Positions 1-59,556 of a stretch of DNA of 64,000 bases are shown one piece after another. The stretch comes from a virus. Lineage: Duplodnaviria > Heunggongvirae > Uroviricota > Caudoviricetes. Position 1 is the first letter of the stretch, and each line of letters begins with the position of its first letter. The translations under genes and the position numbers were made by a program. The notes beneath the pieces were generated by a model that saw only the letters and a list, made by a program, of their open reading frames with translations, ran no database searches and had not been told where the DNA came from. Location of the stretch: positions 1 to 64,000 of IMG/VR virus record IMGVR_UViG_3300032257_000005; one strand, 5' to 3'.

Positions 1-126
1 GCGTTTGATTGTCCATATAGCAGTACGTTTGATTGCTCCATTAGGGACAGGCTTTTTCCACCATAAGTCTGATAGCTCACCACTATCTAATAATCTTCTA
101 CCTCTTGCGGAAAGTCGTGCTCTCAT
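1..126 (-). CDS. hypothetical protein; only the 5' part is in the window
   Basis: Open minus-strand frame runs from the ATG at 126..124 to the window edge. It is preceded by copy 1 of the conserved left-end leader motif. Confidence 0.3.
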   Translation of the reverse strand, partial: MRARLSARGRRLLDSGELSDLWWKKPVPNGAIKRTAIWTIKR

Positions 127-149
127 ACATCACCCTGTTAGTCTGTGTC
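124..149 (-). promoter_or_regulatory. conserved left-end leader/TIR motif, copy 1 (minus strand ...CAGACTAACAGGGTGATGT-ATG)
   Basis: Near-identical ~25 nt element directly abutting a minus-strand start codon. There are four copies at 124, 361, 513 and 888. Confidence 0.5.
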
Positions 150-362
150 TTTAATTCTGTTTCTCAATGCGTGGTATAAGCTTAAAGCTAGGCATAGCAA
201 TACAAACCACATAAGCCAGTGTGTATCCATCCAATTAGACTTTACTAGCCTTATATATTCATGTTTGCCATACATATCCTGAATCATTGAGACGCTGAAC
301 ATGGCAGACAAAAAGCCAAGTAAAAAACTATACCGCAATTGCTTTTTAGGCTTAATATTCAT
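138..362 (-). CDS. small hydrophobic membrane protein (74 aa)
   Basis: ORF with two hydrophobic segments. Its start codon is fused to leader motif copy 2. Confidence 0.4.
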   Translation of the reverse strand: MNIKPKKQLRYSFLLGFLSAMFSVSMIQDMYGKHEYIRLVKSNWMDTHWLMWFVLLCLALSLYHALRNRIKDTD

Positions 363-390
363 ATCATCACCCTGTTAGTCTGTTTACCTG
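361..390 (-). promoter_or_regulatory. conserved left-end leader/TIR motif, copy 2 (AAACAGACTAACAGGGTGATGAT-ATG)
   Basis: Sequence repeat, see copy 1. Confidence 0.5.
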
Positions 391-516
391 CATCTTGAAA
401 AACGGCTGTAGCATAATCTTCCTTACCGCCTTTAGCTTTTTCTTTTGGCGCAATATTTCTCGCTTAAGATATATTTCATCTAGCTCGTCCTGTGTTCTAT
501 CTCCGAAATAAGCCAT
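367..516 (-). CDS. small basic protein (~50 aa, MAYFGDRTQDELDEIYLKRE...). The start is reassigned to the ATG fused to leader copy 3.
   Basis: The ORF track gives 367..651, but motif copy 3 ends in an in-frame ATG at 516. The upstream in-frame 'RNDDM' is the translated motif itself. Confidence 0.3.
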   Translation of the reverse strand: MAYFGDRTQDELDEIYLKREILRQKKKLKAVRKIMLQPFFKMQVNRLTG

Positions 517-540
517 ATCATCATTCCTGTTAGTCTGTTT
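513..540 (-). promoter_or_regulatory. conserved left-end leader/TIR motif, copy 3 (AAACAGACTAACAGGAATGATGAT-ATG)
   Basis: Sequence repeat. Confidence 0.5.
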
Positions 541-890
541 GTTTGTGTCTATGATTTTTAATGCAGCCCTTAGTACCTTTCTCACACATTCTTGAACTAA
601 GTGTATTAACTTCACAAATGTCATTCCATAGGCCAAAATTATATTTTTCATCCAGTAAGTATGAATCTTGCATCAATCTACAATATAACCAGCTTGTTTT
701 GCTCACTAAATCACCAAGCCAAAAACTAAACCATGCAATAAGAAAATAATATCTATGTTTGGCTGTATTTTCATTTTGTTCAAGCCAATCAAAAAACGCA
801 TCAATTAAAAGAAATATAAACATTAGTAACGGCCATACAATAAATAGGCATATTAAAAAGCCAATTATTAAAGCAAATATAAACTCCTGC
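530..890 (-). CDS. membrane protein (~120 aa). The start is reassigned to the ATG at 890 behind leader copy 4.
   Basis: Multiple hydrophobic helices. The motif-fused ATG (MQEFIFALIIGFL...) lies inside the longer ORF 530..937. Confidence 0.4.
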
Positions 891-905
891 ATATCATCAT
901 TCCTG
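888..905 (-). promoter_or_regulatory. conserved left-end leader/TIR motif, copy 4 (short form CACAGGAATGATGAT-ATG)
   Basis: Sequence repeat. Confidence 0.45.
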
Positions 906-1634
906 TGTATCGGGTGCTGGTGTTTCTGGGAAATCAAGACCAGCTCTACACAGCTCGTCTAGTGCATTTTGAAATAGATCAACATAATTACTATCCATTT
1001 CTTTAGCCACAAGTTGTATTCCACGTTGAAGATTGCGCCTAACATTATGGAGATTTTCAACACTCACCCACTCAGAGCCTTGTCGCTGGTTATTCTGCTC
1101 TTTCCATAAATCATACATAGAATACATATCATCCAATCGATCTTTAATATCTCGTCGCAATGTTGTCAGCTCTTTATTTTTAGAGTCATTCATTGCTCGC
1201 AAAACATCCAAGTCTCTACGTAAGCAATATTCTATATTTAGCTCTTTATCATCACTCATATCATCCCACTTATCTGTGTTGTTGGTTTCATTATTAGGTA
1301 ATAGAAACTCCCTTGGTGTAATTTTTCCTGTTTCTAGGCTTAGCTTTATTGTGTTGGCTTTAGTAATCCCTAATAACTCGTCAGAGGATAGGCTTAATGC
1401 TTCACATATTAAAATTAAATTTCTTACGCTTAACCATGAGCTTGCATTTTCTATCATCACATATGAGGTTCTTTCTATATTCATATAATCAGCAAAACTA
1501 GCTTGAGATTCACCCATATTTTTTCTTATGGCTTTTAATTTATTAGCGATTTCTTTTTTAGGTTTATCTTTTTCAATATTAATCTTCTTCTTTAAATCAT
1601 TAATCTGCTTCTGTAAACCATCAATCTTATTCAT
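897..1634 (-). CDS. XRE-family helix-turn-helix transcriptional regulator with an N-terminal coiled coil
   Basis: Central segment ...IRKNMGESQASFADYMNIERTSYVMIENASSWLSVRNLILICEALSLSSDELLG has the classic Cro/C1-type HTH pattern. The N-terminal region is Lys/Glu-rich coiled coil. Confidence 0.5.
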   Translation of the reverse strand: MNKIDGLQKQINDLKKKINIEKDKPKKEIANKLKAIRKNMGESQASFADYMNIERTSYVMIENASSWLSVRNLILICEALSLSSDELLGITKANTIKLSLETGKITPREFLLPNNETNNTDKWDDMSDDKELNIEYCLRRDLDVLRAMNDSKNKELTTLRRDIKDRLDDMYSMYDLWKEQNNQRQGSEWVSVENLHNVRRNLQRGIQLVAKEMDSNYVDLFQNALDELCRAGLDFPETPAPDTQE

Positions 1635-2152
1635 CCTTCCACCTCATTATTACCACCAAAATGTTTAATAAATAACACTTCTATTTCTTCCCACTTTTGT
1701 TTTCTAGAAGCATCAGTATAAGCAGCAGCAGCAGCATTAGCAGCAGCATCATAAGCAGCATAAGCAGCATAAGCAGCATAAGCAGCAGCAGCAAGGGTTA
1801 TTTTATTTATATTACCTAACTTATACTCTCTAATAGCCGCTATGGCTTCGCGCGGAGCAGTGTTGTCATTATCTCTTTCATAGATATGCAAAACGCTTTC
1901 AGCAATATCAGCAAGAAATAAACAATAATCAAGGTAATCAAAACAGCGTAGACACCAGATAGCATCTTTAATGCCGTTAGACTTGAGTATAGTCATTAAG
2001 TCTATTGGCTCATCGTCTGGTTTGGTTTTACCCAGTGATTTTAATAGAGTCTCCCAGCCTGAAGTGCAAGGTAAATGGCTTTTAATATCATTCAGTGTTG
2101 TAATCATTATCATTCCCCTTGTGCATAGAAATAAACCCTCCAAGCTGGACAT
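1631..2152 (-). CDS. hypothetical protein with Ala/Tyr repeat (AAYAAYAAYAAYDAAANAAAAAY). The true start is probably internal, around 2107-2113.
   Basis: ORF. It contains a GCAGCAKMA microsatellite-like repeat at 1721-1800. Its 5' end overlaps ORF 2088..2294. Confidence 0.35.
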   Translation of the reverse strand: MSSLEGLFLCTRGMIMITTLNDIKSHLPCTSGWETLLKSLGKTKPDDEPIDLMTILKSNGIKDAIWCLRCFDYLDYCLFLADIAESVLHIYERDNDNTAPREAIAAIREYKLGNINKITLAAAAYAAYAAYAAYDAAANAAAAAYTDASRKQKWEEIEVLFIKHFGGNNEVEG

Positions 2153-2294
2153 ACTCTGATCGAGTAACCTCCACCCCGTCTACATAAAATTCATCAGGGG
2201 CAATAATACTTTTAGTATGCACATATTTATGGAAACTTTTCCAGAAAGCGACTGATGTTTCCTCCTGCCTGTCTATACTGTCTTTGTTAGTCAT
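2088..2294 (-). CDS. hypothetical protein
   Basis: ORF only. Confidence 0.3.
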   Translation of the reverse strand: MTNKDSIDRQEETSVAFWKSFHKYVHTKSIIAPDEFYVDGVEVTRSEYVQLGGFISMHKGNDNDYNTE

Positions 2295-2476
2295 ATTTTA
2301 CCCCTTGCTTGCTCAGATTTTTTAATTGCTTTTTTTATCTCTGATTCGCTGGGCACATACCCTGTGTTTAACCAATGCAAATAAATTTGATTTACAGGCT
2401 CAGGCGGTGAGCCAACACTATAAAGCCAAATACTCATATAATTTGTTAATAATCTACAACGGGCATGTTTCTTCAT
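2291..2476 (-). CDS. hypothetical protein
   Basis: ORF only; overlapping stop/start with its neighbour. Confidence 0.3.
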   Translation of the reverse strand: MKKHARCRLLTNYMSIWLYSVGSPPEPVNQIYLHWLNTGYVPSESEIKKAIKKSEQARGKI

Positions 2477-2502
2477 CCCTCACCCCTCCGCTTGCTGTTG
2501 TG

Positions 2503-2781
2503 CTATTCTTCATACAAATCATACTTTTTACAAATTTCATCTATTTCAGGTATTGCCCTGAAGATTGAAAACTCCCCTTCCCATTTTCCACTGAGTTTAA
2601 AATACTTTTCACCAGCTAATATTTTGAAACGTCTTAGCCTCATAGTTTCGATAACTGCCCAATCTTCAGGGCTGTATTCTTTTTTGTTTAATCCAAGAGA
2701 ATCAATAAGTATTCTAGACGCATCACAATGATATTCTTTACGCGCTTTAGGATACGTAACCGTTGTAAGCTCCCATGACAT
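2503..2781 (-). CDS. hypothetical protein
   Basis: ORF only. Confidence 0.35.
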   Translation of the reverse strand: MSWELTTVTYPKARKEYHCDASRILIDSLGLNKKEYSPEDWAVIETMRLRRFKILAGEKYFKLSGKWEGEFSIFRAIPEIDEICKKYDLYEE

Positions 2782-2783
2782 AA

Positions 2784-3137
2784 TTATTCCCCCGCCCCGT
2801 CTAGGGCTTGCTGAATCCTAACTAAGCATTTCATTAAATCATTATTCCTTTCTTCAAAATCTGCCGAACCTGCATAGCAAGACCAATCTTTTACTATTGC
2901 AGCAACTTTAACCATCTTCGCCTTTTCTGCCTCAAGCTCGGACTGTAACGCATCAGCTTGAAACGGCCATGTATTCATCATTGAATAGTGCATAACCTGC
3001 CTTTCTGCTGCCTCAAGCTCGGACTGAAAATGTTTAATAATTTGAATGACATTACTACACAGCTCACAGGCTAATTCATCATCCGACATATCCACAACAG
3101 CTTGCATATTATTTATCGCTACCTGTATATCACTCAT
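2784..3137 (-). CDS. hypothetical acidic coiled-coil protein
   Basis: ORF. It has an internal duplicated segment (..ALQSELEAEKAK.. / ..FQSELEAAERQ..; DNA repeat CTGCCTCAAGCTCGGACTG at ~2930 and ~3010). Confidence 0.35.
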   Translation of the reverse strand: MSDIQVAINNMQAVVDMSDDELACELCSNVIQIIKHFQSELEAAERQVMHYSMMNTWPFQADALQSELEAEKAKMVKVAAIVKDWSCYAGSADFEERNNDLMKCLVRIQQALDGAGE

Positions 3138-3640
3138 AACGGAACCCCATCTTTATCAAACCACTTATCCATTTCTTCCACCATATTATTGTAGTTTGTT
3201 CCTTTTACTTGGCTAAAAAGTATCTGCATTCTTGCGCCTCGTTGTGTGCAACATTTTTTAGCTGCCTCAAGCTCTGCCTTAGCTTCGGTTAGTTGTTGTC
3301 TTATACCCTCCACTTCTTCTAAAAAGTCTATATAATCCTCGCCGCTATATAATATCTGATCTTTCTCAAACTCAGCTATTGCTCCCTCAAGCTCACTGTT
3401 ACGTGCTTGTAGGTGTTCAACAGCTTTGAGGAAATTATCATATATGTTAGGTATCATTCTATGGTCACTCTTAAGCTGCTTTACTAAAGAGTCAATATCC
3501 TCCATAGATAGCTTATCAGTGCTCATGAATTTGGTAATATCAAATCTAAATTCCATATCAGTAAGCCTCGGCTTGTCCCTGCTGCCAACATTATCAAAGT
3601 CAGTCGCGTTTACGTGGTTTGGGTCTATGTGTTTAGTCAT
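3134..3640 (-). CDS. hypothetical protein
   Basis: ORF with stop/start overlap to the 2784..3137 gene. It shares the 'ELEAAKK' theme. Confidence 0.35.
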   Translation of the reverse strand: MTKHIDPNHVNATDFDNVGSRDKPRLTDMEFRFDITKFMSTDKLSMEDIDSLVKQLKSDHRMIPNIYDNFLKAVEHLQARNSELEGAIAEFEKDQILYSGEDYIDFLEEVEGIRQQLTEAKAELEAAKKCCTQRGARMQILFSQVKGTNYNNMVEEMDKWFDKDGVPL

Positions 3641-3650
3641 TGTCTGCTCC

Positions 3651-3866
3651 TTATTGGTTGGCTAGTCCGCATTTAATTTTTGTAGTGTCGCCGGGAAATC
3701 TATGCAAGTATTTATACTTCATTTCCCAAACGTAACTATTTCTTAAATTGCACCACCAGACAGATTCGTTACGCTTCCTTAATTTACGAGCGCGTTGCTT
3801 GCAAATTATTCTAACTGTATTCATACAACCTCCCACAATCCCCGCAACGCTTGGGGGTGTTAACAC
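3651..3866 (-). CDS. hypothetical basic protein
   Basis: ORF only. Confidence 0.25.
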   Translation of the reverse strand: MLTPPSVAGIVGGCMNTVRIICKQRARKLRKRNESVWWCNLRNSYVWEMKYKYLHRFPGDTTKIKCGLANQ

Positions 3867-4072
3867 CTAAACAAAGTATCATTGCCACCATGCGTTTGAT
3901 TTAATACGCTTGGGCTAGTTGACGTTTCACTTTCCCTTAATGGGTCAATTTCATGTTTAAATACTAAACTCAAATGACGTTTTATTGCTCGAACTTGGTC
4001 AATGGTTAATTCGTCAGTATCGGATATTTCAAAATACCCCTGTAACCAAAAGCAAAAATCAATAGTGTTCAT
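3860..4072 (-). CDS. hypothetical protein
   Basis: ORF only. Confidence 0.3.
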   Translation of the reverse strand: MNTIDFCFWLQGYFEISDTDELTIDQVRAIKRHLSLVFKHEIDPLRESETSTSPSVLNQTHGGNDTLFRC

Positions 4073-4089: not shown

Positions 4090-4638
4090 TTAAACCGGCT
4101 CAATCACATTCAAAGCCTGCTCAATATCAGATACACGATAGTTTTTACCACCGATATTAATCGTTGCTTTTTCATTCACATCAATGCCAGAAATCTCTTT
4201 GAATATCTCAGCGTCAAAATTCGGCAGTTTAAACAGTTTGGCTTTATCTTCTTCGCTGGCTCTTGCGTACGAAGCCTTAAACGCTTCCTGATATTCGTAA
4301 ACTTTTAAATACCCGCCTGTAGTCTCATGTGATGGATGATCGGCTTTTTCTTTGTCTGTCATATTAGCCGCATCAATCCATTGAGTTAAATCGAAGTAAA
4401 GAAAATCAGGCTTATCGGCATTGTCCCAGTCATCTATAGAACATGGTTTATTGAACACACTAAAACCATCATAATCATTGGTGCTAAAATGGCCTGTTGA
4501 GTAATTACTAATTGACCAGCATCCTGTTGACCTGTGTCCCGTTGACCTATTCCCCGTTGACCAGTGTCCCGTTGACCAGTGTCCCGTTGACCAGTGTCCC
4601 GTTGACCTATTTCCCGTTGACCAGTTTCCCGTATTCAT
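4090..4638 (-). CDS. hypothetical protein with N-terminal (S-T-G-H/N-W/R)n pentapeptide repeats
   Basis: The N-terminus, NTGNWSTGNRSTGHWSTGHWSTGHWSTGNRSTGHRSTGCWS, is encoded by tandem 15-bp repeats at ~4501-4635. Confidence 0.4.
   Translation of the reverse strand: MNTGNWSTGNRSTGHWSTGHWSTGHWSTGNRSTGHRSTGCWSISNYSTGHFSTNDYDGFSVFNKPCSIDDWDNADKPDFLYFDLTQWIDAANMTDKEKADHPSHETTGGYLKVYEYQEAFKASYARASEEDKAKLFKLPNFDAEIFKEISGIDVNEKATINIGGKNYRVSDIEQALNVIEPV
4501..4635 (-). repeat. in-frame tandem 15-bp repeat (GTCCCGTTGACCAGT-like), about 9 units
   Basis: Directly visible in the sequence. Confidence 0.8.
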
Positions 4639-5126: not shown

Positions 5127-5403
5127 TAGTTTTCTCCTTGGTATCCAGTGTTGAGTTTAGCACACGATAAATACTTTTTATTTCATTCTCTATTGCTAGA
5201 GCAGACATTTTAGCCATTAACGGATCTGAATCAATTGAGTTTTTAATAACATCTACAGCCGATTCAATACCTATTAAATTGTCAATTAAAAATCTAATAT
5301 GTGATTCATATAAACCACATAATGCAGGGTAAGGTGATTCATCACCACGCGCTAATACATAATCATTAGCTTTTTCTTGATACTTTTCAAAAAATTCATT
5401 CAT
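5098..5403 (-). CDS. hypothetical protein (the start is probably the ATG at 5403, just downstream of the exonuclease stop)
   Basis: ORF; tight junction with the 5408..6085 gene. Confidence 0.3.
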   Translation of the reverse strand: MNEFFEKYQEKANDYVLARGDESPYPALCGLYESHIRFLIDNLIGIESAVDVIKNSIDSDPLMAKMSALAIENEIKSIYRVLNSTLDTKEKTNEETKENIS

Positions 5404-5407
5404 TGTA

Positions 5408-6085
5408 TTAATCCATAAATTGTAAACGTTTAAATATTTTACGTGCTTTAATGCAATCATTATTACAATATTCTGCAACTTTTTCATACTCACCATCTTT
5501 AATAGCTTGCCATACCATTGAACCATCAAAACCATCTTTACCTTCAATACCTAACAACTTACATAGGTTATCCATGCTGATCATTTTAGTAGAATCCCAT
5601 TCATGCATCGTATCGAATACACGATCTGACCACGGCCTTGCATCATGATAAAGAGGTATGGTTGGATGAACATTATTAATAACAGACCGTTTCCAGATAT
5701 ACTTTAAATCAAATCCGCAAATATTATGGCCTATCATCATAGGTATACTCATCCCGATAGCTTTACTAGCAGATTTATAAAACGTTATTAATAAACCAGC
5801 TTCAGATTCATCTAAATGTCGCATAACGTTTACAGGTGGTTCATCATCAATAGCATAACTAATACAAATTATCTCGCCGTAATTAGCATCTAGTGAAGTC
5901 TTGATCCATTTAGTTTCAGCATTCTTATCTGCATTAGCTATCTCAGTTGCAAACCATTTATCAAGCGTTTCCTGTTTCTTAATATTGCCGGGTGGATTTA
6001 AATTATCAATTATTTCTTTTTTAAATGTTTCAACAATTCCTTCTTGCTGGCATGGAATTGATTCGATATCTATGGTGAAATTCAT
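5408..6085 (-). CDS. 3'-5' exonuclease, DnaQ-like / PolB-exonuclease-related
   Basis: N-terminal Exo I-like motif MNFTIDIESIP (D-x-E). Later motifs ...ICGFDLKYIW... and ...EYCNNDC... (Y-x(3)-D) fit the fold of stand-alone PolB-type exonucleases. Confidence 0.55.
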   Translation of the reverse strand: MNFTIDIESIPCQQEGIVETFKKEIIDNLNPPGNIKKQETLDKWFATEIANADKNAETKWIKTSLDANYGEIICISYAIDDEPPVNVMRHLDESEAGLLITFYKSASKAIGMSIPMMIGHNICGFDLKYIWKRSVINNVHPTIPLYHDARPWSDRVFDTMHEWDSTKMISMDNLCKLLGIEGKDGFDGSMVWQAIKDGEYEKVAEYCNNDCIKARKIFKRLQFMD

Positions 6086-6103
6086 TTCATAACTCCCCTT
6101 TAA

Positions 6104-6790
6104 TCAAAATGAAATATCGTCATCAAAGTTACTTGGCATTGCATTAGGTGCAGGTTGCTGTTGTGGTGCAGGATTTTCAGACATAACCGGCATTTCATCT
6201 GGCAAAGCTGCGGCTGGTGGTTGTTCTGTTTTACTTTCACCTATTAATTCTTTCCATTCATTACTTTCTTTTATTTGTTTCTGCATACCATCAGATAACG
6301 TTTCAAATGTTTTCATATCAAAATCATCAAAATCAATAAACACTAATGGATTTATAGCTTTGGGTTTTTCCATACCTTCTATACATGAAATAACTGATGC
6401 AGGTTTAGCTTTCATTTTACCTTTGCTATTAGGTGAATGAATTATAGTCATTAAGCCGGGAGCATTAAGCATTTTTGAAATATCAAAATCTTCAGCTTCT
6501 TCATCAGAAACAAAATCCTTACCTCGCCATGTTACAATTCGTGCGCGTAGATTACCTAATTCGCTCATAGTTAAAGTTGGAAATTCAGCAATAATAAAAG
6601 GGCGTTGTACGCCTTTATCATCTGCTTCCATTAAACAACTAGTAAGCTCATACATCAAGCAAATTTTATGCTGATTTTTACTGTACATTTCGTTGTAAGT
6701 TGTACCTAAATCAATGATACGAATTAATCTACAAAAATGACTTCCTTCTGGTGCTAGTTGGAAATCTCCACTGTTTACGTGTGCTTTCAT
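6104..6790 (-). CDS. single-stranded DNA-binding protein-like (acidic C-terminal tail ...NFDDDISF)
   Basis: The C-terminal D-D-D-I-S-F closely mimics the conserved SSB or T7 gp2.5 acidic, aromatic-terminated tail. A Pro/Gln-rich linker precedes it. The gene sits next to the exonuclease. Confidence 0.45.
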   Translation of the reverse strand: MKAHVNSGDFQLAPEGSHFCRLIRIIDLGTTYNEMYSKNQHKICLMYELTSCLMEADDKGVQRPFIIAEFPTLTMSELGNLRARIVTWRGKDFVSDEEAEDFDISKMLNAPGLMTIIHSPNSKGKMKAKPASVISCIEGMEKPKAINPLVFIDFDDFDMKTFETLSDGMQKQIKESNEWKELIGESKTEQPPAAALPDEMPVMSENPAPQQQPAPNAMPSNFDDDISF

Positions 6791-6791
6791 T

Positions 6792-7739
6792 TTATTTACC
6801 TTCTCGGTTGTTTGCCTTAATCGGCGTTAATAGTTGCCGGTTACGGTTCCGGCTTGCTGTATCAATAAGCAACGTATATTGCACTATGGCGGCTTCTTTA
6901 ATAGCCTTCATCTGCATTGCCATTTCAAAAAGTGCTTTGTTAAGTTTAATATTTTTATCAATATTTTTAACTTCGCGTGTAGTGCTATTTCGATAGCCTT
7001 TACCGTCAGTCCACTTGGACATTCTAATACCACCGCGTAAAGCCTTTTCCTGTACTACGTTAAATGTACTCCATAAATCCATTCCTGTATCAGAACTTCT
7101 TTTAGGTCGTAACATTTGGCTAGTCAAATTTTCTGATGAAGTAATTATTTTTTGATTCTGCTTTGGTTCTGGCAAAATATAACCTAGTGCTGTACGTGCA
7201 AATATTTCTTGTTCAGCTCGATTTAGTTCAATCGCTTGCATACCTTCAATCTGACTAGTAATTAGTGGCACTTCATCAATTACGTTGTAACTACCTTCAA
7301 TTACACGTTCAGTAGCAAAACGGTTATGACGTACACTTACTTTATTAAAAGTTGAATCAGCAATAACAATACCATTAGCACATGCCATTCTAAAAACACC
7401 TGCATGTAATACAAAGCCGCTTGATCGGTCATGGCTATTAGTAAGTAGTAATTCTACAACTGAATCACCTACTGTAATATCATCGTTTAATCTGCGAAAT
7501 CGTACTAAATGTTTTGTGAAATCTTGCTTTGATTTGTCGCGTACATTTTTTTGAGTTGCATCAACTGGATACCAGCCTTCAGCACGTAGACCATCAATAA
7601 CATTAATGGTTGGTATAAAACCGTATTTGTCGGATACATCACTATGCGGTTGTTCAGCAAATACGCTTGGTGCGGTCATTATAATTTGATCGTTTTCAAG
7701 TGCTACTGAATGTGATTTTGTTTCTTCTCTATAGTACAT
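6792..7739 (-). CDS. conserved phage protein of unknown function (possibly DUF932-like). The start is reassigned to the ATG at 7739.
   Basis: Long ORF. The track start at 7748 is a GTG inside the Shine-Dalgarno sequence AAGGTGA of the conserved 5'UTR cassette. The next ATG at 7739 has proper spacing. Confidence 0.35.
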   Translation of the reverse strand: MYYREETKSHSVALENDQIIMTAPSVFAEQPHSDVSDKYGFIPTINVIDGLRAEGWYPVDATQKNVRDKSKQDFTKHLVRFRRLNDDITVGDSVVELLLTNSHDRSSGFVLHAGVFRMACANGIVIADSTFNKVSVRHNRFATERVIEGSYNVIDEVPLITSQIEGMQAIELNRAEQEIFARTALGYILPEPKQNQKIITSSENLTSQMLRPKRSSDTGMDLWSTFNVVQEKALRGGIRMSKWTDGKGYRNSTTREVKNIDKNIKLNKALFEMAMQMKAIKEAAIVQYTLLIDTASRNRNRQLLTPIKANNREGK

Positions 7740-7795
7740 AATATTCACCTTTTTTCGGTTTGTTTATTTAACTTACACTTTGAATTATACATACA
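7740..7795 (-). promoter_or_regulatory. conserved promoter + 5'UTR cassette copy a (minus strand TGTATAATT...N~22...AACCGAAAAAAGGTGAATATT-ATG)
   Basis: -10-like TGTATAAT box, then the conserved leader AACCGAAAAAAGGTGA. Five related copies exist. Confidence 0.5.
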
Positions 7796-7841
7796 TTATT
7801 ATGAATTGCAAACTTTTTTTAAGTGTATGAAATTCAACAAC

Positions 7842-8069
7842 TTATACCTGTATTCTATCTATTAATGCATCCCACCAGCCGTTTTTACTTTTAAAACTCT
7901 TAAAAACACGTACATGATCAGGAAAAGCCATTGCTAACTTAGCCATATTACCGATATCCGCTACAGAAATAGCGTTCATCAAATGAGTTTTAAAGCTACT
8001 CGACATACCATTATTCCATTCGTATAGGTCACGTTCAGCTTCAGTTAAAACAGTTAAATTAATTCTCAT
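7842..8069 (-). CDS. hypothetical protein
   Basis: ORF only. Confidence 0.3.
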   Translation of the reverse strand: MRINLTVLTEAERDLYEWNNGMSSSFKTHLMNAISVADIGNMAKLAMAFPDHVRVFKSFKSKNGWWDALIDRIQV

Positions 8070-8182
8070 AAATCACCTATTGCAATATTAAACAAGTTAA
8101 TGCATCATGAAATCTGACCTTTCCCTTAAAGGTCTTTCATTTCTAAACTCCCCTTTAGCGGTCTTTATGGCCGCTTTTTTAA

Positions 8183-9397
8183 TTATCCTTTTACATTTAT
8201 AACTTGCTTTAATGTATGAACGATATCAACTAAATCAGATTGATTTTCCATAACTACATCAATAGATTTATATGCCGATGGTATTTCATCAATTCTTGCT
8301 TCATCTTTTGGACATTCAATACCTTCTGTTTGTGAAATTAAATCATCAACTGTATACATTTTTTTAGCTTGATTTCGCCCTAACTTTCTACCAGCACCAT
8401 GAGAACATGAACAAAATGAATCTTTATTACCTTTACCTTTTACAATAAATGATTTTGCTCCCATACTGCCGGGTATAATTCCCATATCGCCTTCACGCGC
8501 ACGAATAGCACCTTTTCGAGTAACCCAAACATTTGAACCAAAATGGTTTTCTCTTGATATATAATTGTGGTGACAATTGATTGCACTTTTATCTGTTCCG
8601 AAATTTCCAAAATGATTATGTAGAACTTTTAAAACTGCTTGCATCATAACTAAACGACTTTGTTCAGCGAAATCTTGCGCCCATAAAACAGCATTACAAT
8701 AATCATCAAATATTTCTGTATGCTCAACTAAATAAGAAAGGTCTTTATCTGGAAGAAAAGGTGTAATATGATAACGTTCCATTTCACGTTTTGCTTGTTC
8801 AATAAAATATGAACCTATTTTATTTCCAGCACCCCTTGAGCCTGAATGTAACATAACCCAAACATTATCATTTTCATCAAGACATATTTCAATAAAATGA
8901 TTTCCTCCACCAAGCGTACCCATATGCTGCCATGAATTATAACCTTTAGCTTTAGGATGCTTGAGTATTATTTCATCATAACGTGATGCTAAGGGAATCC
9001 ATCTATCTGAAGCATCTACTGAAATTGTATCTTGCCAACCACCTTTATCATTTATACCGCCATTATCAGTACGTCCATGTGGTACAGCCGCTTCAATATC
9101 AGTTCTGATAGTATGTAAATTATCCGGTAATTCATTAGCAGTAATTGTTGTTTTTACTGCAATCATTCCGCAACCAAGATCAACACCAACCGCAGCAGGT
9201 ATAATTGCGCCTTTTGATGGAATAACAGAACCGATAGTTGCACCCATACCCCAATGAACATCAGGCATAGCCGCAATATGTTTATGAATGAAATTCATTT
9301 GCGACATGTTTTCTAATTGCTTCATAGCATTATCATCTATGTCATTAGTCCATATTTTTACTGGCTTACCTTTATTTATAACTTTTTTTATTGGCAT
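8183..9397 (-). CDS. rtcB: RtcB-family RNA 3'-phosphate/2',3'-cyclic-phosphate ligase
   Basis: 404 aa. Typical RtcB segments are present: N-terminal ...AAMPDVHWGMGATIGSV..., ...HSGSRGAGNKIG..., and C-terminal ...CSCSHGAGRKLGR.... Confidence 0.8.
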   Translation of the reverse strand: MPIKKVINKGKPVKIWTNDIDDNAMKQLENMSQMNFIHKHIAAMPDVHWGMGATIGSVIPSKGAIIPAAVGVDLGCGMIAVKTTITANELPDNLHTIRTDIEAAVPHGRTDNGGINDKGGWQDTISVDASDRWIPLASRYDEIILKHPKAKGYNSWQHMGTLGGGNHFIEICLDENDNVWVMLHSGSRGAGNKIGSYFIEQAKREMERYHITPFLPDKDLSYLVEHTEIFDDYCNAVLWAQDFAEQSRLVMMQAVLKVLHNHFGNFGTDKSAINCHHNYISRENHFGSNVWVTRKGAIRAREGDMGIIPGSMGAKSFIVKGKGNKDSFCSCSHGAGRKLGRNQAKKMYTVDDLISQTEGIECPKDEARIDEIPSAYKSIDVVMENQSDLVDIVHTLKQVINVKG

Positions 9398-12138: not shown

Positions 12139-12356
12139 TTCATTTACCTTTTTTCGGTTGTTAGTTTAATGGCCGTATTGTTCAACAATAGTAAATTTAC
12201 CATTATTAGTATGATCTTTAGTAGTTATGCTTAAAATATAATCTTCAGCTTCATCTATTGTGTTGAATACTAAAGGTACATTTTTTCATTTGCAATATAT
12301 TCAGAACAATGTGTTTTATTATACGTGTATAATATTGAATACATTTTAATTCTCCT

Positions 12357-12665
12357 TTATAAACTCAAGTACAAGCCAGTTTCATTTTCAAAATATTCTT
12401 TCAGTTGATCAAAATAAAGACCTTCAACTTCAGAACGTACTGTGTAATTCATTGATCTGATATAACCAAATTCAGCACTATATGTATCATCAACTTTTAA
12501 TATCAGCTTAAAATAATTTGCTTTGTTACGTGCTTTACTAGGGAAGCGAAAGGATACTGAATTTTCATCCTTTGCAAAATTCTTTGCACCAATCATTGCT
12601 ACTAATCTATTGATACCGTTGTTAGCTTGGGCTAATTGGTTAAGTGCTGTATTTGCGTCTATCAT
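12357..12665 (-). CDS. hypothetical protein (the start is reassigned to the ATG at 12665)
   Basis: ORF. The track start is a GTG inside the Shine-Dalgarno sequence of cassette copy b. Confidence 0.35.
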   Translation of the reverse strand: MIDANTALNQLAQANNGINRLVAMIGAKNFAKDENSVSFRFPSKARNKANYFKLILKVDDTYSAEFGYIRSMNYTVRSEVEGLYFDQLKEYFENETGLYLSL

Positions 12666-12716
12666 GTTGTTCACCTTTTTTCGGTTCGTTTAAGTTATGA
12701 TTTAATTATACACACA
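12666..12716 (-). promoter_or_regulatory. conserved promoter + 5'UTR cassette copy b (GTGTATAATT...AACCGAAAAAAGGTGAACAAC-ATG)
   Basis: Sequence repeat, see 7740..7795. Confidence 0.5.
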
Positions 12717-12798
12717 ATAATCATAAATGCAAACAATTTGTAAGTTATTGATTTATATATGGATATAAAGATATATTGATACTACTATATATAACTTA

Positions 12799-20004: not shown

Positions 20005-20574
20005 ATGCAAGAAAAATTAAAGATGCTTAGTATGATTCTATTATCTGCTTTATGGATATTCTTAATGGTACTGTTTTTTATATTACCCATTGAACAAGCC
20101 AAAGCGGATAACTCTGTTTTCTTTGGTATACGAACGCACGACTTTAAAGATATGGGCTATTCCGGGCAGATCTGCAATAAAGCGTGTATAGATATTGGTT
20201 ATCATAAAAACGTTTTACTAACGGGATTACTTTTTGATGCAACAACTGACAATAACAAATCATCATGGGGACGATTACAAGCCGGTGTAGGTTTATTAAA
20301 ACAAAACAATGTTTATACGATTGTTGGATTAGGTGGTGTAGGTGTAGGTGCTTTATCTGAAGATGGTGGTGTTGAAGTATCTTACAAGGTCGCTATTGAT
20401 AGAGATAAAATAGTCATGCGTGGATGGGATTTAGGAATACGATTACGTGAAAGTGAAGAAGATGAACTTATTACACCTATGAAGAAATTACCGACACCAC
20501 CAAAACATTATAATTGTAAACACCCGCATAAACATAAATGTGGTGATGATAAACATAGGAATAAGCATGATTAA
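20005..20574 (+). CDS. secreted/membrane protein with a His/Lys-rich C-terminus (KHPHKHKCGDDKHRNKHD)
   Basis: N-terminal signal/TM segment; His-rich tail. Confidence 0.35.
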   Translation: MQEKLKMLSMILLSALWIFLMVLFFILPIEQAKADNSVFFGIRTHDFKDMGYSGQICNKACIDIGYHKNVLLTGLLFDATTDNNKSSWGRLQAGVGLLKQNNVYTIVGLGGVGVGALSEDGGVEVSYKVAIDRDKIVMRGWDLGIRLRESEEDELITPMKKLPTPPKHYNCKHPHKHKCGDDKHRNKHD

Positions 20575-20751
20575 TTTGTTTAAACGATTATTATGTAGGC
20601 ATGAATTTGAATCATGGGTTACATATAATAAATTTGACTTTCCTATGCGAAGTTATAGGAAGTGTATTAAATGCGGAAACAATGAAATAAAGACAACGTA
20701 TAGAACGGGTTGTGAATCAATAAAATGGCTATGAAAGGAATGGACAAGTAA

Positions 20752-26708: not shown

Positions 26709-26746
26709 TATGAGCAATTGGAAAAACAGAATAATAGGAACAGATA

Positions 26747-28015
26747 ATGCAATGGAAAAATAAAATAGTTGGTTACGGTGAAGATGCACCTGAAAACTTA
26801 TTGGCTAATCCTCAGAATTATAGATTGCATCCAAAGTACCAACAGGATGTACTAAAGGAGCAAATAGAAAAAGGCGGTATTATCGCACCTGTTATTGTCA
26901 ATAAACGCACAGGATTTATGATAGATGGTCACTTGCGAGTAACATTAGCTATTAGAGAAAATCAAAATACAATACCTATTGCTTATGTTGATCTATCTGA
27001 AGAAGATGAAAAGTTAATGCTTGCTACTTACGATGCTATAACTTATTTAGCAACAATAGAAGAAGATACGCGTAATACATTAGCGCAGGAAGTCGAAGAG
27101 CAGAAAGAAAATCTAGAAAAGTTATTAGATGAAATGCGTTTTGATCCACCTGCTGAAGATAATGAAGGTGAAGATGATGTACCAGAGGTTGAAGAAACTG
27201 CTATAAGTGTATTAGGCGATGTATGGATATTAGGAAATCATCGGTTAATGTGTGGTGACAGCACCAGTATAGATGCGGTTGAAAAGCTTATGGATGGACA
27301 GAAAGCCGATATGGTTTTTACAGATCCGCCTTATAACGTAAATTTTAAAGGTCAAGAATTAAGTAATACGACAAAAAATGGAAAAAAAATACTTCACCAT
27401 GAAGGTGCTAATACAAATCATGATAATATAAAAAATGATTGCATGGATGATAATTTATTTATTGAGTTTATAACATTATCATTAAATAATTTATCTAAAG
27501 TAAATAAAGGCGCATGGTATTTTTGTTTTGTTGATTTAAAGTTAGATTTAATTTTAGTGCCATTAAAGGAAACAGGTTTTTCTTGGAAATCAATAATTAT
27601 ATGGAAAAAAAATCAAGCTACTTTATCAGGCAAAGATTATAAAAGCAGATATGAGCCAATAGTGTATGGATGTCCTAGTAATTGCTTTTTTGGTGAAAGA
27701 TATAAACAGGAGGATATATGGGAGTTTACCCGAACACTTAAAAATGATTTGCATCCAACAATGAAGCCGATTCCGCTTATAGAAAATGCAATAAACAATT
27801 CATCTAAAGAAGAAATGAATGTAATAGATGTATTTGGCGGTTCAGGCTCTACTTTAATAGCTTGCGAGAAAACAAAACGTAATTGTTACATGATGGAACT
27901 AGACCCTAAATACATAGACGTAATAATTAAACGTTGGCAGGACTTCACAGGAAAACAAGCTACTCTTGAGAATACAGATAAAACATTTAAAGATATAGAA
28001 ACAGAACGATTATAA
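26747..28015 (+). CDS. ParB-like nuclease domain fused to a DNA (N6-adenine/N4-cytosine) methyltransferase
   Basis: N-terminal ...HPKYQQDVLKEQIEKGGIIAPVIVNKRTGFMIDGHLRVTLA... is a ParB-N/Srx fold. C-terminal ...MVFTDPPYNV... (motif IV DPPY) and ...DVFGGSGSTLIACEKTKRNCYMMELDPKY... (motif I) indicate a beta-class amino-methyltransferase. Confidence 0.7.
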   Translation: MQWKNKIVGYGEDAPENLLANPQNYRLHPKYQQDVLKEQIEKGGIIAPVIVNKRTGFMIDGHLRVTLAIRENQNTIPIAYVDLSEEDEKLMLATYDAITYLATIEEDTRNTLAQEVEEQKENLEKLLDEMRFDPPAEDNEGEDDVPEVEETAISVLGDVWILGNHRLMCGDSTSIDAVEKLMDGQKADMVFTDPPYNVNFKGQELSNTTKNGKKILHHEGANTNHDNIKNDCMDDNLFIEFITLSLNNLSKVNKGAWYFCFVDLKLDLILVPLKETGFSWKSIIIWKKNQATLSGKDYKSRYEPIVYGCPSNCFFGERYKQEDIWEFTRTLKNDLHPTMKPIPLIENAINNSSKEEMNVIDVFGGSGSTLIACEKTKRNCYMMELDPKYIDVIIKRWQDFTGKQATLENTDKTFKDIETERL

Positions 28016-28057: not shown

Positions 28058-28453
28058 ATGAAAAAAGAATTACATTTAACAAAAAAAGATTTTCGTATTG
28101 AATGGTTTTCCGGTCAAGGTGCTGGTGGTCAGCATAGAAATAAACATCAGAACTGTTGTCGTATAATTCATAAAGAAACGGGATTAAAAGCACAAGGCAC
28201 TGAATCTAGAGAAAGACAATCAAATCAAAGAACAGCATTTACCAGACTTGCTAAATTAGTTATTGCTCATTATTACGCTGAAGATGAAAAAATAAGAATA
28301 AAAGCAGATGAAGTAATAAGGAATTATCACGGCGTTAGAAATGAAGTACATGATAAGGCTAGTGGGTTAAAATTATCATATAAAGATATTGTAGAAAACG
28401 GCAATATTGGAAAGATGATTGAAGCAAGACGTAAAATAATGGGATGCGAATAA
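28058..28453 (+). CDS. GGQ-motif peptidyl-tRNA hydrolase, ArfB/PrfH-like (release-factor catalytic domain only)
   Basis: ...FSGQGAGGQHRNKHQNCCRIIHKETGLKAQGTESRERQSNQRTAFTRLAKLV... matches the RF-1/ArfB GGQ-domain consensus (G-x-GGQHVNK...RSQ..NR..A...L). At 131 aa it has no codon-recognition domains. Confidence 0.65.
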   Translation: MKKELHLTKKDFRIEWFSGQGAGGQHRNKHQNCCRIIHKETGLKAQGTESRERQSNQRTAFTRLAKLVIAHYYAEDEKIRIKADEVIRNYHGVRNEVHDKASGLKLSYKDIVENGNIGKMIEARRKIMGCE

Positions 28454-31296: not shown

Positions 31297-31420
31297 GTAA
31301 GCAGTCTGATTATGACAAACGACAGGTATCTGAAGGTAATGTAAAAGTATGTCTTTGGATACCTGTTAAGAAGCGTAAGAAATTAATAGAATATGCCAAT
31401 AAGTTGAAGGGGAAATAGAA

Positions 31421-32173
31421 ATGACAAAATTACATGAGTTATTAGCAGTTGAAGGGGATCTTGAAGGTGTGTCTAAAAAGATCATTGATGAAGCGAATAA
31501 GACGTTTAAAGATAAGCCAGCGCATTTTTTAGGTGCTACTAAGCATTGGGATATGTTTGATGAAGTTGATCAATTAAATGCACCTACTGATGAACATCAG
31601 AAAATGGTTACTACTGTTAATCAAAAACTTGAATTTGTTTCAAAAAAGGTTGGCAAGTATTATGATGCTGTATTACAGAAAGAATCAACTAATCAACTAG
31701 CAAAATCAGATTTAATTGTTGATGGTGATATTTTGGCTAAAGATGTACCCGCTACTTTTTTATTAGGTATGGAAAAGCGATTAAAAGAATTGCGTAATAT
31801 GATGGATTCAATGCCAACATTGCAAGCAGGTAAAGCATGGGAACGTGACGATTCAACTAATACGTATAAAATGGTTCATCCTGATGTACGTTTTAAAACA
31901 GCTAAAACATTTCAGCATAAAGTTTTATATGATGCAACACCTGAACATCCTGCACAAATTGAACGATGGGAAGAAACAAAGAATGTAGGTAAATCAGTTC
32001 AAGACGTATGGTCAGGTATGCTATCAGTAAAAGAAAAGGCTGATATGATGGAACGAGTTGATAATTTAATGCGAGGTGTTAAGAAAGCACGTATGCGAGC
32101 TAATAATGTAGAAGCGGTTAAAAGTTCTATTGGTAGTAAGATGTTTCAATATATTATTAAAGGAAAGATTTAA
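31421..32173 (+). CDS. hypothetical protein (250 aa)
   Basis: ORF behind the duplicated leader TATGCCAATAAGTTGAAGGGGAAATAGAAATG. Confidence 0.4.
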   Translation: MTKLHELLAVEGDLEGVSKKIIDEANKTFKDKPAHFLGATKHWDMFDEVDQLNAPTDEHQKMVTTVNQKLEFVSKKVGKYYDAVLQKESTNQLAKSDLIVDGDILAKDVPATFLLGMEKRLKELRNMMDSMPTLQAGKAWERDDSTNTYKMVHPDVRFKTAKTFQHKVLYDATPEHPAQIERWEETKNVGKSVQDVWSGMLSVKEKADMMERVDNLMRGVKKARMRANNVEAVKSSIGSKMFQYIIKGKI

Positions 32174-32913: not shown

Positions 32914-32956
32914 ATATACTTAAGTTAATTAAGTATGCTAATAAGTTGAAGGGGAA

Positions 32957-33139
32957 ATGAAAATGAGTGAAATAAAATTAAGCTTAGATGATGCAAGGCA
33001 ATTAAAAAAAGATTGCGAGAATGAAATAGATAGAATTATTAAGTCTTTTCAGGAAAGAACTAATATTGAAGTTGAAGAAATTCAGTTTAAGCATAAATCT
33101 GGAACTGGTCGATATACTGAAATTAAAGTAGATTTCTAA
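32957..33139 (+). CDS. hypothetical protein
   Basis: ORF behind the second copy of the duplicated leader. Confidence 0.3.
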   Translation: MKMSEIKLSLDDARQLKKDCENEIDRIIKSFQERTNIEVEEIQFKHKSGTGRYTEIKVDF

Positions 33140-33768: not shown

Positions 33769-33867
33769 ACGGGAGTGGTGGAAATGGCAGACACGCTATA
33801 AGGTAGTGATGATAAAAGCATAGGCTGGTGCTTCATCGTGCAGGTTTGAATCCTGCCTTCCGTACCA
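33769..33867 (+). tRNA. non-canonical 99-nt tRNA-like gene (acceptor ACGGGAG/CTTCCGT with one G-U pair, T-arm GCAGG-TTTGAAT-CCTGC, discriminator A, CCA encoded); anticodon not assignable
   Basis: Acceptor and T-arm pairings are exact and a 3-bp D-stem (GTG/CAC) is possible. The body is ~10-20 nt too long for any standard class. A 5-bp stem (AAGCA/TGCTT) closes an 8-nt loop TAGGCTGG. Confidence 0.35.
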
Positions 33868-33888
33868 TACAAGCCAAGCATTTATTAA

Positions 33889-33963
33889 GTCGAGTTCATC
33901 TAACGGTTAGGATATCAGGTTTTCAACCTGAGTATGGGAGTTCAATTCTCCCACTCGACACCA
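33889..33963 (+). tRNA. tRNA-Glu (anticodon UUC)
   Basis: Clean cloverleaf: acceptor GTCGAGT/ACTCGAC, anticodon arm TCAGG-TTTTCAA-CCTGA (anticodon TTC), T-arm GGGAG-TTCAATT-CTCCC, discriminator A, CCA encoded. Confidence 0.8.
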
Positions 33964-59555: not shown

Positions 59556-59556
59556 T

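What the first reader, a model, noticed from the sequence alone, without database searches (positions are those of the whole stretch)
124..905. Four copies of a 25-nt leader motif fused to start codons of small membrane-protein genes at the left end
AAACAGACTAACAGG(GT/AA)TGATGAT-ATG occurs at 124, 361, 513 and 888 (minus strand), always ending in the initiator ATG. Translated in frame it yields R-N-D-D-M. Three of the four downstream genes encode tiny hydrophobic proteins.
Such a rigidly conserved element including the Shine-Dalgarno sequence (AGGGTGA/AGGAATGA) suggests a shared translational operator. It may be an RNA-binding-protein or sRNA target, or a site for a phage-specific ribosome-loading factor. 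It could also be a recombination hotspot generating a small-gene family, as in pre-early regions of large virulent phages.
Basis: seen in the sequence. Interest (0 to 1): 0.55.

Follow-up and report, generated by a model that had tools for sequence, protein, structure and literature searches.

The report
Repeated leader at phage gene junctions
Four back-to-back small genes at the far end of an uncultured phage's early operon are each preceded by nearly the same ~25-base stretch (previous gene's stop codon, ribosome-binding site, next gene's ATG); the repeat is real and resembles the "start-associated sequences" of some mycobacteriophages, but it occurs only in this phage and its function is unproven.

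Summary
Three minus-strand copies share the exact 13-mer ACAGACTAACAGG and are 80-88% identical over 25 nt, ending at ATGs at 126, 362 and 516. A fourth copy (ATG 892) keeps only the 3' 17 nt. Similarity stops at the ATG: the next 30 nt are 10-27% identical.

Each copy is a gene junction. It holds the upstream gene's stop codon (TAA or TGA, read in different frames), a Shine-Dalgarno sequence and the next ATG, 4-13 nt after the stop.

Only two downstream proteins are hydrophobic (g3, g1). The other two (g2, g0) are basic paralogs whose synonymous sites are saturated, yet their leaders remain near-identical. That points to selection or homogenisation rather than recent copying.

No RNA structure, promoter, terminator or Rfam match was found. 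The motif exists only in this phage, which appears identically in four metagenomes, and g3, g4 and g0/g2 have no homologs. Comparative tests were therefore impossible.

The same genome carries a second, dispersed leader family (AACCGAAAAAAGGTGAA, 6-7 copies) and a third duplicated leader.

My best reading is a start-associated translation-initiation and coupling cassette, analogous to Cluster K mycobacteriophage SAS. Interest is modest.

The parts
124..152 (-). Junction copy g1->g0 (G-type, 1-nt deletion): AAAGACACAGACTAACAGGGTGATGT-ATG. g1 stops at TAA 138-140; the g0 ATG is at 124-126.
   Evidence: score 40
360..385 (-). Junction copy g2->g1 (G-type): AAACAGACTAACAGGGTGATGAT-ATG. g2 reads the motif in another frame (..N R L T G) and stops at TGA 367-369; the g1 ATG is at 360-362.
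   Evidence: score 52
514..550 (-). Junction copy g3->g2 (AA-type): AGACACAAACAAACAGACTAACAGGAATGATGAT-ATG. g3 stops at TAA 530-532 (..T D *); the g2 ATG is at 514-516.
   Evidence: score 54
890..911 (-). Partial junction copy g4->g3: GATACACAGGAATGATGAT-ATG. The 3' 17 nt are identical to the g3->g2 copy. g4 stops at TGA 897-899; the g3 ATG is at 890-892.
   Evidence: score 34
897..1634 (-). g4: 245-aa HTH_3 protein, the gene upstream of the array. It has no homolog outside this phage.
530..892 (-). g3: 120-aa ORFan with a strongly hydrophobic N-terminus (KD19 maximum 3.06).
367..516 (-). g2: 49-aa basic hydrophilic protein, paralog of g0. Its last 8 residues are encoded by the next junction motif.
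138..362 (-). g1: 74-aa ORFan with two moderately hydrophobic segments.
1..126 (-). g0: 5' part of a 47-aa basic protein (complete in L018 1079-1222 and L016 531-674), paralog of g2.
26724..26749 (+). Possible diverged copy AAACAGAATAATAGGAACAGATA-ATG in the intergenic leader of the N6_N4 DNA methylase gene. It is at the noise ceiling by sequence alone.
   Evidence: (score 24 vs shuffle maximum 22-26)

Best explanation
The motif is a start-associated gene-junction cassette. On the mRNA of the leftward non-structural operon, each copy supplies four things in about 25-37 nt:
- an unstructured A/C-rich stretch (AAACAGACTAAC);
- the stop codon of the upstream gene (the TAA inside ACTAAC, or the first TGA of TGATGA);
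- a Shine-Dalgarno sequence (GGGTGAT or AGGA);
- a fixed 7-9-nt spacer ending in ATG.

Ribosomes finishing one small gene therefore terminate 4-13 nt from an exposed, standardised initiation site for the next gene, giving translational coupling with a common initiation region.

The array grew by duplication or recombination of units carrying this leader; g2 and g0 are ancient paralogs. The leader has since been kept nearly identical while the adjacent coding DNA diverged to saturation.

Shown: the anatomy, the orientation, the lack of structure, the SD content and the differential conservation. Inferred: that the conservation reflects selection for a translation-level function, and what (if anything) reads the 5' half.
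For: - Non-random repeat that ends exactly at the ATG: upstream 25 columns are 80-88% identical among three copies, downstream 30 nt are 10-27% identical.
- All four upstream stop codons lie inside the motif, 4-13 nt from the next ATG. They are read in two different frames, so the conservation is at nucleotide level, not peptide level.
- g0 and g2 are paralogs (Smith-Waterman score 48 against 20 +/- 3.9; 0 of 2000 shuffles). Third codon positions are 8/33 identical, i.e. saturated, yet their leaders are 20/25 identical.
- The junctions fold no better than shuffled sequence and the motif is unpaired (z +0.4 to +1.4). No terminator and no excess of promoters was found, and there is no Rfam family.
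- An SD is present. G-type copies rank 12-13 of 138 genes for anti-SD pairing (-10 kcal/mol) and AA-type copies are at the median. SD strength therefore does not explain the conserved 5' half or the spacer.
- The spacer TGATGAT is not the genome's generic RBS.
- The same genome holds other leaders shared by unrelated genes, always in sense orientation and ending at an ATG. These are T1, AACCGAAAAAAGGTGAA (7 hits against 0.31 expected), and T3. T1 copies rank directly after the motif's own copies in similarity to its 5' half among 137 gene starts.
- An unrelated phage contig, L055, has its own 22-nt leader in 9 copies.
- Cluster K mycobacteriophage SAS show the same anatomy, including upstream stop codons inside the element (PMC3203893).
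Against: - There is no experimental or comparative evidence. The motif is absent from IMG/VR, GTDB genomes and JGI metagenomes except in this same phage, and the four available contigs are about 100% identical.
- Only 3-4 copies exist, clustered in 0.8 kb, which is what a local duplication history alone would give.
- Neighbouring copies are the most alike (AA-AA, G-G), as expected from stepwise duplication.
- Two of the SDs are only average in strength.
- Coding potential is weak for g2 and g1.
- g1 and g3 are not detectably paralogous, so the 'ancient duplication' argument rests on one gene pair.
Confidence: 0.5

Rival explanations
1. The repeat is a neutral scar of how the array was built. 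Small foreign genes were stitched in, or duplicated, by short-homology recombination at an existing junction. Each event copied the junction. The sequence has no role beyond being an ordinary RBS, and its identity reflects recency or homogenisation.
For: - The copies are confined to consecutive junctions within 0.8 kb, and adjacent copies are the most similar.
- g2's C-terminal 8 residues are simply read-through into the next junction copy, as expected at a duplication joint.
- The region has higher GC (35-39% against about 31%) and atypical codon usage, suggesting acquired DNA.
- All flanked genes are ORFans.
- PeSL elements show that short shared cassettes can drive such shuffling in phages (PMC2839356).
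Against: - The coding DNA of the g0/g2 paralogs is saturated at synonymous sites while the leader is about 80-85% identical. A neutral 25-nt tract of the same age should have decayed.
- Gene conversion confined to 25 nt between non-homologous flanks is hard to achieve.
- No variant arrangement, deletion or cassette swap was seen in four independent samples.
Confidence: 0.27
2. The motif is an operator for a trans-acting factor that co-regulates translation of these genes. The factor could be a phage RNA-binding protein (for example the small basic paralogs g2/g0), an sRNA, or a modified ribosome.
For: - Positions with no plausible pairing to 16S rRNA (ACAGACTAAC and the spacer) are the best conserved.
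- g2 and g0 are 47-49 aa with 12 Lys+Arg each and sit directly behind two copies.
- The phage carries several translation/RNA-related genes: RtcB, an RF-1-domain protein and a SpoU methylase.
- The same open question stands for Cluster K SAS.
Against: - No complementary sequence exists anywhere in the window at up to 2 mismatches in 13 nt.
- g2 and g0 have no recognisable RNA-binding domain.
- No ribosomal protein such as bS21 was found among 100 non-structural ORFs.
- A regulon of four adjacent genes is unusually small.
Confidence: 0.13
3. The motif is a DNA-level signal. It could be a stoperator-like binding site for the adjacent HTH protein g4, or a promoter for phage-specific transcription (ACTAACAGGGTGA loosely resembles the T3-type CACTAAAGGGAGA).
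For: The core is an asymmetric 13-mer in one orientation relative to transcription, located at gene boundaries next to an HTH_3 gene. The resemblance to T3/T7-class promoters is from memory only.
Against: - The position is fixed to within 1 nt of the ATG and the SD is included, which points to mRNA rather than DNA.
- The motif is not dispersed through the genome as stoperators are.
- No single-subunit RNA polymerase family was found among 100 non-structural ORFs.
- There is no sigma70-type promoter excess.
Confidence: 0.06
4. The repeat is only the duplicated 5' ends of paralogous genes, or a chance similarity of RBS regions.
For: g0 and g2 are paralogs.
Against: - Similarity lies upstream of the ATG and vanishes downstream (3-8 of 30 nt identical).
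- g1 and g3 are not similar to g0/g2 or to each other.
- The chance expectation is 0.
Confidence: 0.02

Closest known systems
Start-associated sequences (SAS) of Cluster K mycobacteriophages (Pope et al. 2011, PMC3203893; function still unverified in 2025, PMC12699233)
   Same: - Short, asymmetric, highly conserved sequence lying a few nt upstream of the start codon.
- Almost always ATG, in one orientation, only at non-structural genes.
- Contains the SD core plus conserved positions that cannot pair with 16S rRNA.
- The upstream gene's stop codon often lies inside it.
- Sits in front of unrelated gene families.
   Different: - Unrelated sequence: GGGATAGGAGCCC is absent here.
- 3-4 copies clustered at consecutive junctions, instead of 11-19 dispersed copies.
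- Longer conserved block (25-37 nt) with 1-nt indel variants.
- No ESAS-type inverted repeats.
- Low-GC uncultured phage with no relatives available to show conservation.
PeSL (promoter-early stem-loop) cassettes of T4-type phages (Arbiol et al. 2010, PMC2839356; Comeau et al. 2014, PMC4122927)
   Same: Short repeated regulatory cassettes flanking small ORFan genes in a plastic region. Recombination between copies could add or delete genes.
   Different: - PeSLs are a sigma70 promoter plus a terminator hairpin. Here there is no promoter excess, no terminator and no stable structure.
- The element here is an intra-operon stop/SD/ATG junction.
- No shuffled variants were found.
Stoperators of mycobacteriophage L5 / Cluster A (13-bp asymmetric repressor sites; cited in PMC3203893, details from my own knowledge)
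   Same: 13-nt asymmetric core in one orientation relative to transcription, located at gene boundaries.
   Different: Stoperators are dispersed genome-wide (tens of copies) and act on DNA by repressor binding. Here the register with the ATG and the SD content point to mRNA.
Ordinary translational coupling junctions, and the 'linker/boundary sequence' idea for lambdoid mosaicism (Susskind & Botstein; Clark et al. 2001; from my own knowledge, not checked here)
   Same: Stop and start codons lie within a few nt, with the SD in or next to the upstream gene's end. Short shared sequences at gene boundaries are proposed as crossover points.
   Different: Ordinary coupled junctions do not share 13-25 nt of identical sequence between unrelated gene pairs.

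Membership tests
Cluster K SAS | Match to the consensus GGGATAGGAGCCC with at most 2 mismatches | tested here: not met
   0 matches in the window. The element is an analogue, not a sequence member.
Cluster K SAS | Located within a few bp upstream of a start codon (mostly ATG), in one orientation | tested here: met
   The core ends 7-9 nt before an ATG in all 4 copies, all in sense orientation.
Cluster K SAS | Restricted to non-structural genes | tested here: met
   All copies are in the leftward non-structural operon. None is in the terminase-to-tail region.
Cluster K SAS | Many dispersed copies per genome (11-19) | tested here: not met
   3 full copies and 1 partial copy lie within 0.8 kb, with one doubtful copy at 26724. 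The separate T1 leader family is dispersed (6-7 copies).
Cluster K SAS | Contains an SD core plus conserved positions that cannot pair with 16S rRNA | tested here: met
   GGGTGAT/AGGA pair with the anti-SD (-10 and -6.4 kcal/mol). ACAGACTAAC and the spacer are conserved without pairing.
Cluster K SAS | Conserved across related phages in front of different gene families | not testable with these tools
   No relatives carrying the motif or the flanking genes were found.
PeSL cassettes | Strong sigma70-like promoter within the repeat | tested here: not met
   7 promoter-like sites against 8.6 expected; none lies in the motif.
PeSL cassettes | Stem-loop or terminator within the repeat | tested here: not met
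   0 terminator-like sites. Folds are no better than shuffles and the motif is unpaired.
PeSL cassettes | Indels or replacements between close relatives bounded by the repeats; mini-circles | tested here: inconclusive
   Contigs from four samples show the identical arrangement. Reads could not be examined.
L5-type stoperators | Dispersed genome-wide and bound by the phage repressor | tested here: not met
   The motif is not dispersed. Binding is not testable.
Tandem paralogous gene family (duplicated 5' ends) | Downstream proteins or DNA align beyond the start codon | tested here: not met
   Downstream 30 nt are 10-27% identical. Only g0/g2 are paralogs, at 35% aa identity; all other pairs are not significant.
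RNase III-type processing sites between early genes (T7-like) | Conserved hairpin at each junction | tested here: not met
   No structure above shuffled controls, and no Rfam hit.

The most novel reading that the evidence does not exclude
The junction motif, and perhaps the T1 and T3 leaders of the same genome, could be the recognition sequence of a phage-encoded trans-acting translation factor. Candidates are the small basic paralogs g2/g0 that sit directly behind two copies, or a factor linked to the phage's RNA/ribosome toolkit (RtcB, ArfB-like RF-1 protein, SpoU methylase). It would define a phage-private translational regulon for accessory genes. This would be a tractable non-mycobacterial counterpart of the still-unexplained Cluster K SAS.
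Probability: 0.13. Interest if true: 0.65.

Novelty: new variant of a known kind. Interest (0 to 1): 0.3.

Why it matters
Start-associated sequences have been described mainly in Cluster K mycobacteriophages, and they remain functionally unexplained 14 years on. This window shows the same phenomenon in an unrelated, low-GC, uncultured phage: unrelated genes share a leader far more conserved than an RBS needs to be. It occurs in three separate leader families in this one genome, and an independent example turned up in another metagenomic phage (L055). That hints that phage-private, standardised translation-initiation cassettes may be widespread and under-annotated.

If the elements are functional, they would be useful for gene-start prediction of ORFans and as portable translational coupling parts. 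They would also be an entry point to phage control of host ribosomes. If they are only recombination scars, they mark where and how accessory genes are stitched into operons.

Tried and rejected
- **Relatives.** Exact or gapped motif scans of IMG/VR, GTDB genomes and JGI metagenomes returned only chance single hits, plus L016, which is the same phage. Protein-based searches with g4, g3 and the g0/g2 profile found only self-hits.
- **Distant anchors.** I fetched loci around homologs of the convergent 261-aa protein, DUF932 and the Imm5-like protein. None carries the motif, and these phages are not close relatives (GC 35-51%).
- **T1 leader in IMG/VR.** Only chance single hits.
- **Cassette variants.** Look-ups of g1, g2 and g3 found no alternative neighbourhoods.
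- **Fossil fifth copy inside g4.** The sequence at 1257-1277 (ACAGATAAGTGGGATGATATG, T-D-K-W-D-D-M) would suggest g4 is a gene fusion. It scores below the shuffle ceiling, and g4 shows no similarity to a short HTH gene in the same position in L071. Dropped.
- **+1 frameshift at GGG-UGA or GAA-UGA.** This would fuse g2-g1 or g4-g3, because the ATG frame equals the stop frame +1. The frame relations differ among the four copies and there is no slippery context. Dropped.
- **TGA recoding.** Long standard-code ORFs and gene calls argue against it.
- **RNA element.** No Rfam hit and no structure.
- **T7/T3-like promoter.** No single-subunit RNA polymerase family among 100 ORFs.
- **Rest of the contig.** I could not read bases 73.7-86.3 kb of the ENA contig, because look-ups are limited to window proteins.

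Full report
**Context.** The window is about 32% GC and belongs to a tailed phage known only from metagenomes.
- An 86,295-bp ENA contig (ERZ27251083 k141_623775) contains it. Near-identical pieces occur in ERZ27251093, Logan SRR9045858 and JGI 3300032253.
- Genes run leftward from about 12.7 kb to position 1. They include RtcB, HNH, DUF932, a PolB-like exonuclease and an HTH_3 protein.
- Genes run rightward from about 12.8 kb. They include a methylase, terminase, portal and tail genes.
- The nearest isolate terminase is only 37% identical, and there is no DNA match to phage or E. coli collections.
- The finding lies at the distal end of the leftward operon. The window starts about 15 nt from the end of the ENA contig, but L016 and L018 show that the DNA continues. 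g0 is completed there (47 aa), followed by two further small ORFs without the motif and then convergent genes including a holin. 'Left end' is therefore an assembly artefact, not a genome end.

**The observation.**
- On the minus strand the exact 13-mer ACAGACTAACAGG occurs at 134-146, 371-383 and 526-538, and nowhere else. Allowing up to 2 mismatches gives 5 hits against 1.05 expected.
- The 27-nt pattern as written matches once, because the copies differ by 1-nt indels.
- By gapped scoring the four junctions score 54, 52, 40 and 34, against a shuffle maximum of 22-26.
- Hand alignment:
  - g1->g0: AAAGACACAGACTAACAGGG-TGATG-TATG
  - g2->g1: GGTAAACAGACTAACAGGG-TGATGATATG
  - g3->g2: AACAAACAGACTAACAGGAATGATGATATG
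  - g4->g3: CACCCGATACACAGGAATGATGATATG
- Pairwise identity over the 25 columns before the ATG is 80-88% for the three full copies and 56-72% against the fourth. Over the 30 nt after the ATG it is 10-27%, which is random. The repeat is real, has a sharp 3' edge at the ATG, and is less rigid than described.

**Anatomy.** Each copy is a gene junction.
- g3 and g1 end ...ACA GAC TAA (T-D-stop), using the TAA inside ACTAAC.
- g2 reads the same bases in another frame (AAC AGA CTA ACA GGG TGA). g4 ends CAG GAA TGA. Both use the first TGA of TGATGA.
- The next ATG follows 4-13 nt after the stop.
- Because upstream genes read the motif in different frames, the conservation is at nucleotide level.
- The 3' half holds an SD. 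GGGUGAU pairs with the anti-SD at -10 kcal/mol, ranking 12-13 of 138 starts. The AA-type AGGA is only at the median, -6.4 kcal/mol.
- The spacer TGATGAT is not the genome's usual RBS context.
- The four junction RNAs fold no better than shuffled controls (z +0.4 to +1.4) and the motif is unpaired in every fold.
- There is no terminator, no promoter excess and no Rfam family.

**The genes.**
- Gene callers of three pipelines call g4, g3, g1 and g0. g2 is either missed or called in a longer in-frame version.
- Codon-usage support is good for g4, g3 and g0 and weak for g1 and g2.
- g3 has a strongly hydrophobic N-terminus and g1 is moderately hydrophobic. g2 and g0 are basic and hydrophilic. 'Small membrane-protein genes' is therefore only half right.
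- g4, g3 and the g0/g2 family have no homologs among 5.8 billion proteins or 1.8 billion representatives.

- Among all pairs, only g0 and g2 are significantly similar: Smith-Waterman score 48 against 20 +/- 3.9, with 0 of 2000 shuffles reaching it. They share a collinear 31-aa block ending QPFFK.
- In that block nucleotide identity is 44%, and third codon positions are 8/33 identical, i.e. saturated. The leaders in front of the two genes are 20/25 identical.
- So a duplication, or two acquisitions of related genes, did happen, but it is old. The leader has been preserved far beyond the neutral expectation.
- g2's last eight residues (MQVNRLTG) are read-through into the next junction copy, consistent with a duplication joint.
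- Adjacent copies share the subtype (AA-AA, G-G), which also fits stepwise local growth.

**Wider pattern in the genome.** Listing the sequence upstream of all predicted starts exposed further leader families.
- T1 is AACCGAAAAAAGGTGAA followed by 5-6 nt and ATG. It lies at 7744, 12143, 12670, 61228 and 61621 (minus strand) and at 39336 (plus strand), always in sense orientation. There are 7 hits against 0.31 expected. Some copies sit behind sigma70-like promoters that are themselves duplicated (families D11 and D18). One copy (61228) overlaps the upstream stop codon, as in the finding.
- When all 137 start regions are ranked by similarity to the 5' half of the finding's motif, T1 copies come directly after the motif's own copies (scores 14-20 against a median of 9). 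The alignment AAACAAAC[A/C]GA..AA.AGG suggests common ancestry, although the sequences are A-rich.
- A possible extra copy of the finding's motif sits in the leader of the DNA methylase gene (26724-26749). By sequence alone it is at the noise ceiling.
- T3, a leader of about 40 nt, is shared by the genes at 31421 and 32957.
- Another metagenomic phage, L055 (46% GC, sharing only a DUF932 homolog), has its own 22-nt leader AACCAAGAGGGCTAGGAAAATG. It occurs 9 times, always ending in an ATG, on both strands and in front of consecutive small genes.

**Interpretation.** The most economical reading is a start-associated junction cassette acting on the mRNA. It combines an unstructured A/C-rich stretch, a stop codon, an SD and a fixed spacer ending in ATG, so that a run of accessory ORFans is translated by coupling from a common initiation region.
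- Shown: position, orientation, frame-independence, lack of structure, SD content and differential conservation.
- Inferred: that selection for translation maintains it, and what reads the non-SD positions.
- The conserved block (about -37 to +3) falls within the region that a 30S initiation complex covers (established knowledge). That is compatible with direct ribosome/S1 contact or with a dedicated factor.
- The main rival is a neutral scar of short-homology recombination or duplication. It fits the clustering and the ORFan, higher-GC content of the region. It does not fit the saturated divergence next to the motif.
No complementary sequence exists in the window, and no RNA-binding domain or ribosomal protein was found.
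- DNA-level roles are unlikely, given the register with the ATG.

**Comparison with known systems.**
- The closest analogue is the Cluster K mycobacteriophage SAS. These are 13 bp long, lie 3-7 bp before mostly ATG starts, have one orientation, occur only at non-structural genes, combine an SD core with unpairable conserved positions, and sometimes contain the upstream stop. Their function is unknown.
- The present element is not a sequence member of that family. It differs in copy number, clustering and length.
- PeSLs of T4-type phages share the idea of repeated cassettes around ORFans, but they are promoter-plus-terminator units, which were tested here and not found.
- Stoperators share the asymmetric 13-mer and the orientation, but not the dispersion or the register with the start codon.

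**Verdict.** It is best filed as a new variant of a known but unexplained kind. The evidence for function is indirect, resting on one paralogous pair plus anatomy, and no relatives are available. Interest is modest (0.3). It would be higher if the broader pattern of genome-private leaders proves general, or if a trans-acting reader of the motif exists.

Noticed in passing
window 7744-7760(-), 12143-12159(-), 12670-12686(-), 61228-61244(-), 61621-61637(-), 39336-39352(+): A second, dispersed start-associated leader family, AACCGAAAAAAGGTGAA followed by 5-6 nt and ATG (7 hits against 0.31 expected). Every copy is in sense orientation directly before a start codon. It resembles the 5' half of the finding's motif.
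   Followed up: partly
window 7737-7824 vs 12663-12745 (minus-strand genes): A duplicated block of about 90 nt: a sigma70-like promoter (TTGCAA-16-TATAAT) plus the T1 leader. It sits in front of the DUF932 gene and in front of the first gene of the leftward operon.
   Followed up: partly
window 31380-31423 and 32922-32965 (+): A third shared leader (about 40 nt, ...ATGC.AATAAGTTGAAGGGGAAAT..AAATG) in front of two unrelated genes (250 aa and 60 aa).
   Followed up: partly
L055 (IMGVR_UViG_3300028399_000007) 5161-8158 and 20495-20739: An unrelated 46%-GC phage contig has its own 22-nt leader AACCAAGAGGGCTAGGAAAATG in at least 9 copies on both strands, each ending in a gene's ATG. Several are preceded by a GCGCCAAGGATGGCGC hairpin.
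   Followed up: partly
window 4512-4632 (gene 4090-4638, minus): A 15-nt tandem repeat (about 8 copies) encodes an N-terminal pentapeptide array (W/R)STG(H/N). The window has one more unit than the otherwise identical ENA contig, so copy number varies between samples.
   Followed up: partly
window 1709-1793 (Imm5-like gene 1631-2110/2152, minus): A 9/18-nt GCT/GCA-rich repeat encodes an AAY/AAA array. The window has one extra 9-nt unit relative to the ENA contig. This protein family has 489 homologs in diverse phage contigs.
   Followed up: partly
window 8183-9397(-), 28058-28453(+), 63239-63673(-): The phage carries an RtcB RNA ligase, a 131-aa RF-1-domain protein (ArfB/PrfH-like) and a SpoU-type RNA methylase. 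These may form an RNA/ribosome repair or counter-defence toolkit. The RF-1 gene lies directly after the methylase gene that carries the motif-like leader.
   Followed up: no
window about 58650-64000 and L017 (contig to about 66 kb): A block of about 7 kb of small minus-strand genes (including SpoU, DUF8046 and DUF7736) interrupts the plus-strand tail module, between the tail-terminator-like gene and the tail tube / tape measure genes.
   Followed up: no
window 33769-33963 (+): tRNA-Glu(TTC) preceded by an odd 99-nt tRNA-like call with a 4-base anticodon (tagt). Only the tRNA-Glu passes Rfam.
   Followed up: no
window 1-4000: The distal part of the leftward operon has higher GC (35-39%) than the rest of the genome (about 27-34%), and the small ORFs there have atypical codon usage, suggesting acquired DNA.
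   Followed up: partly
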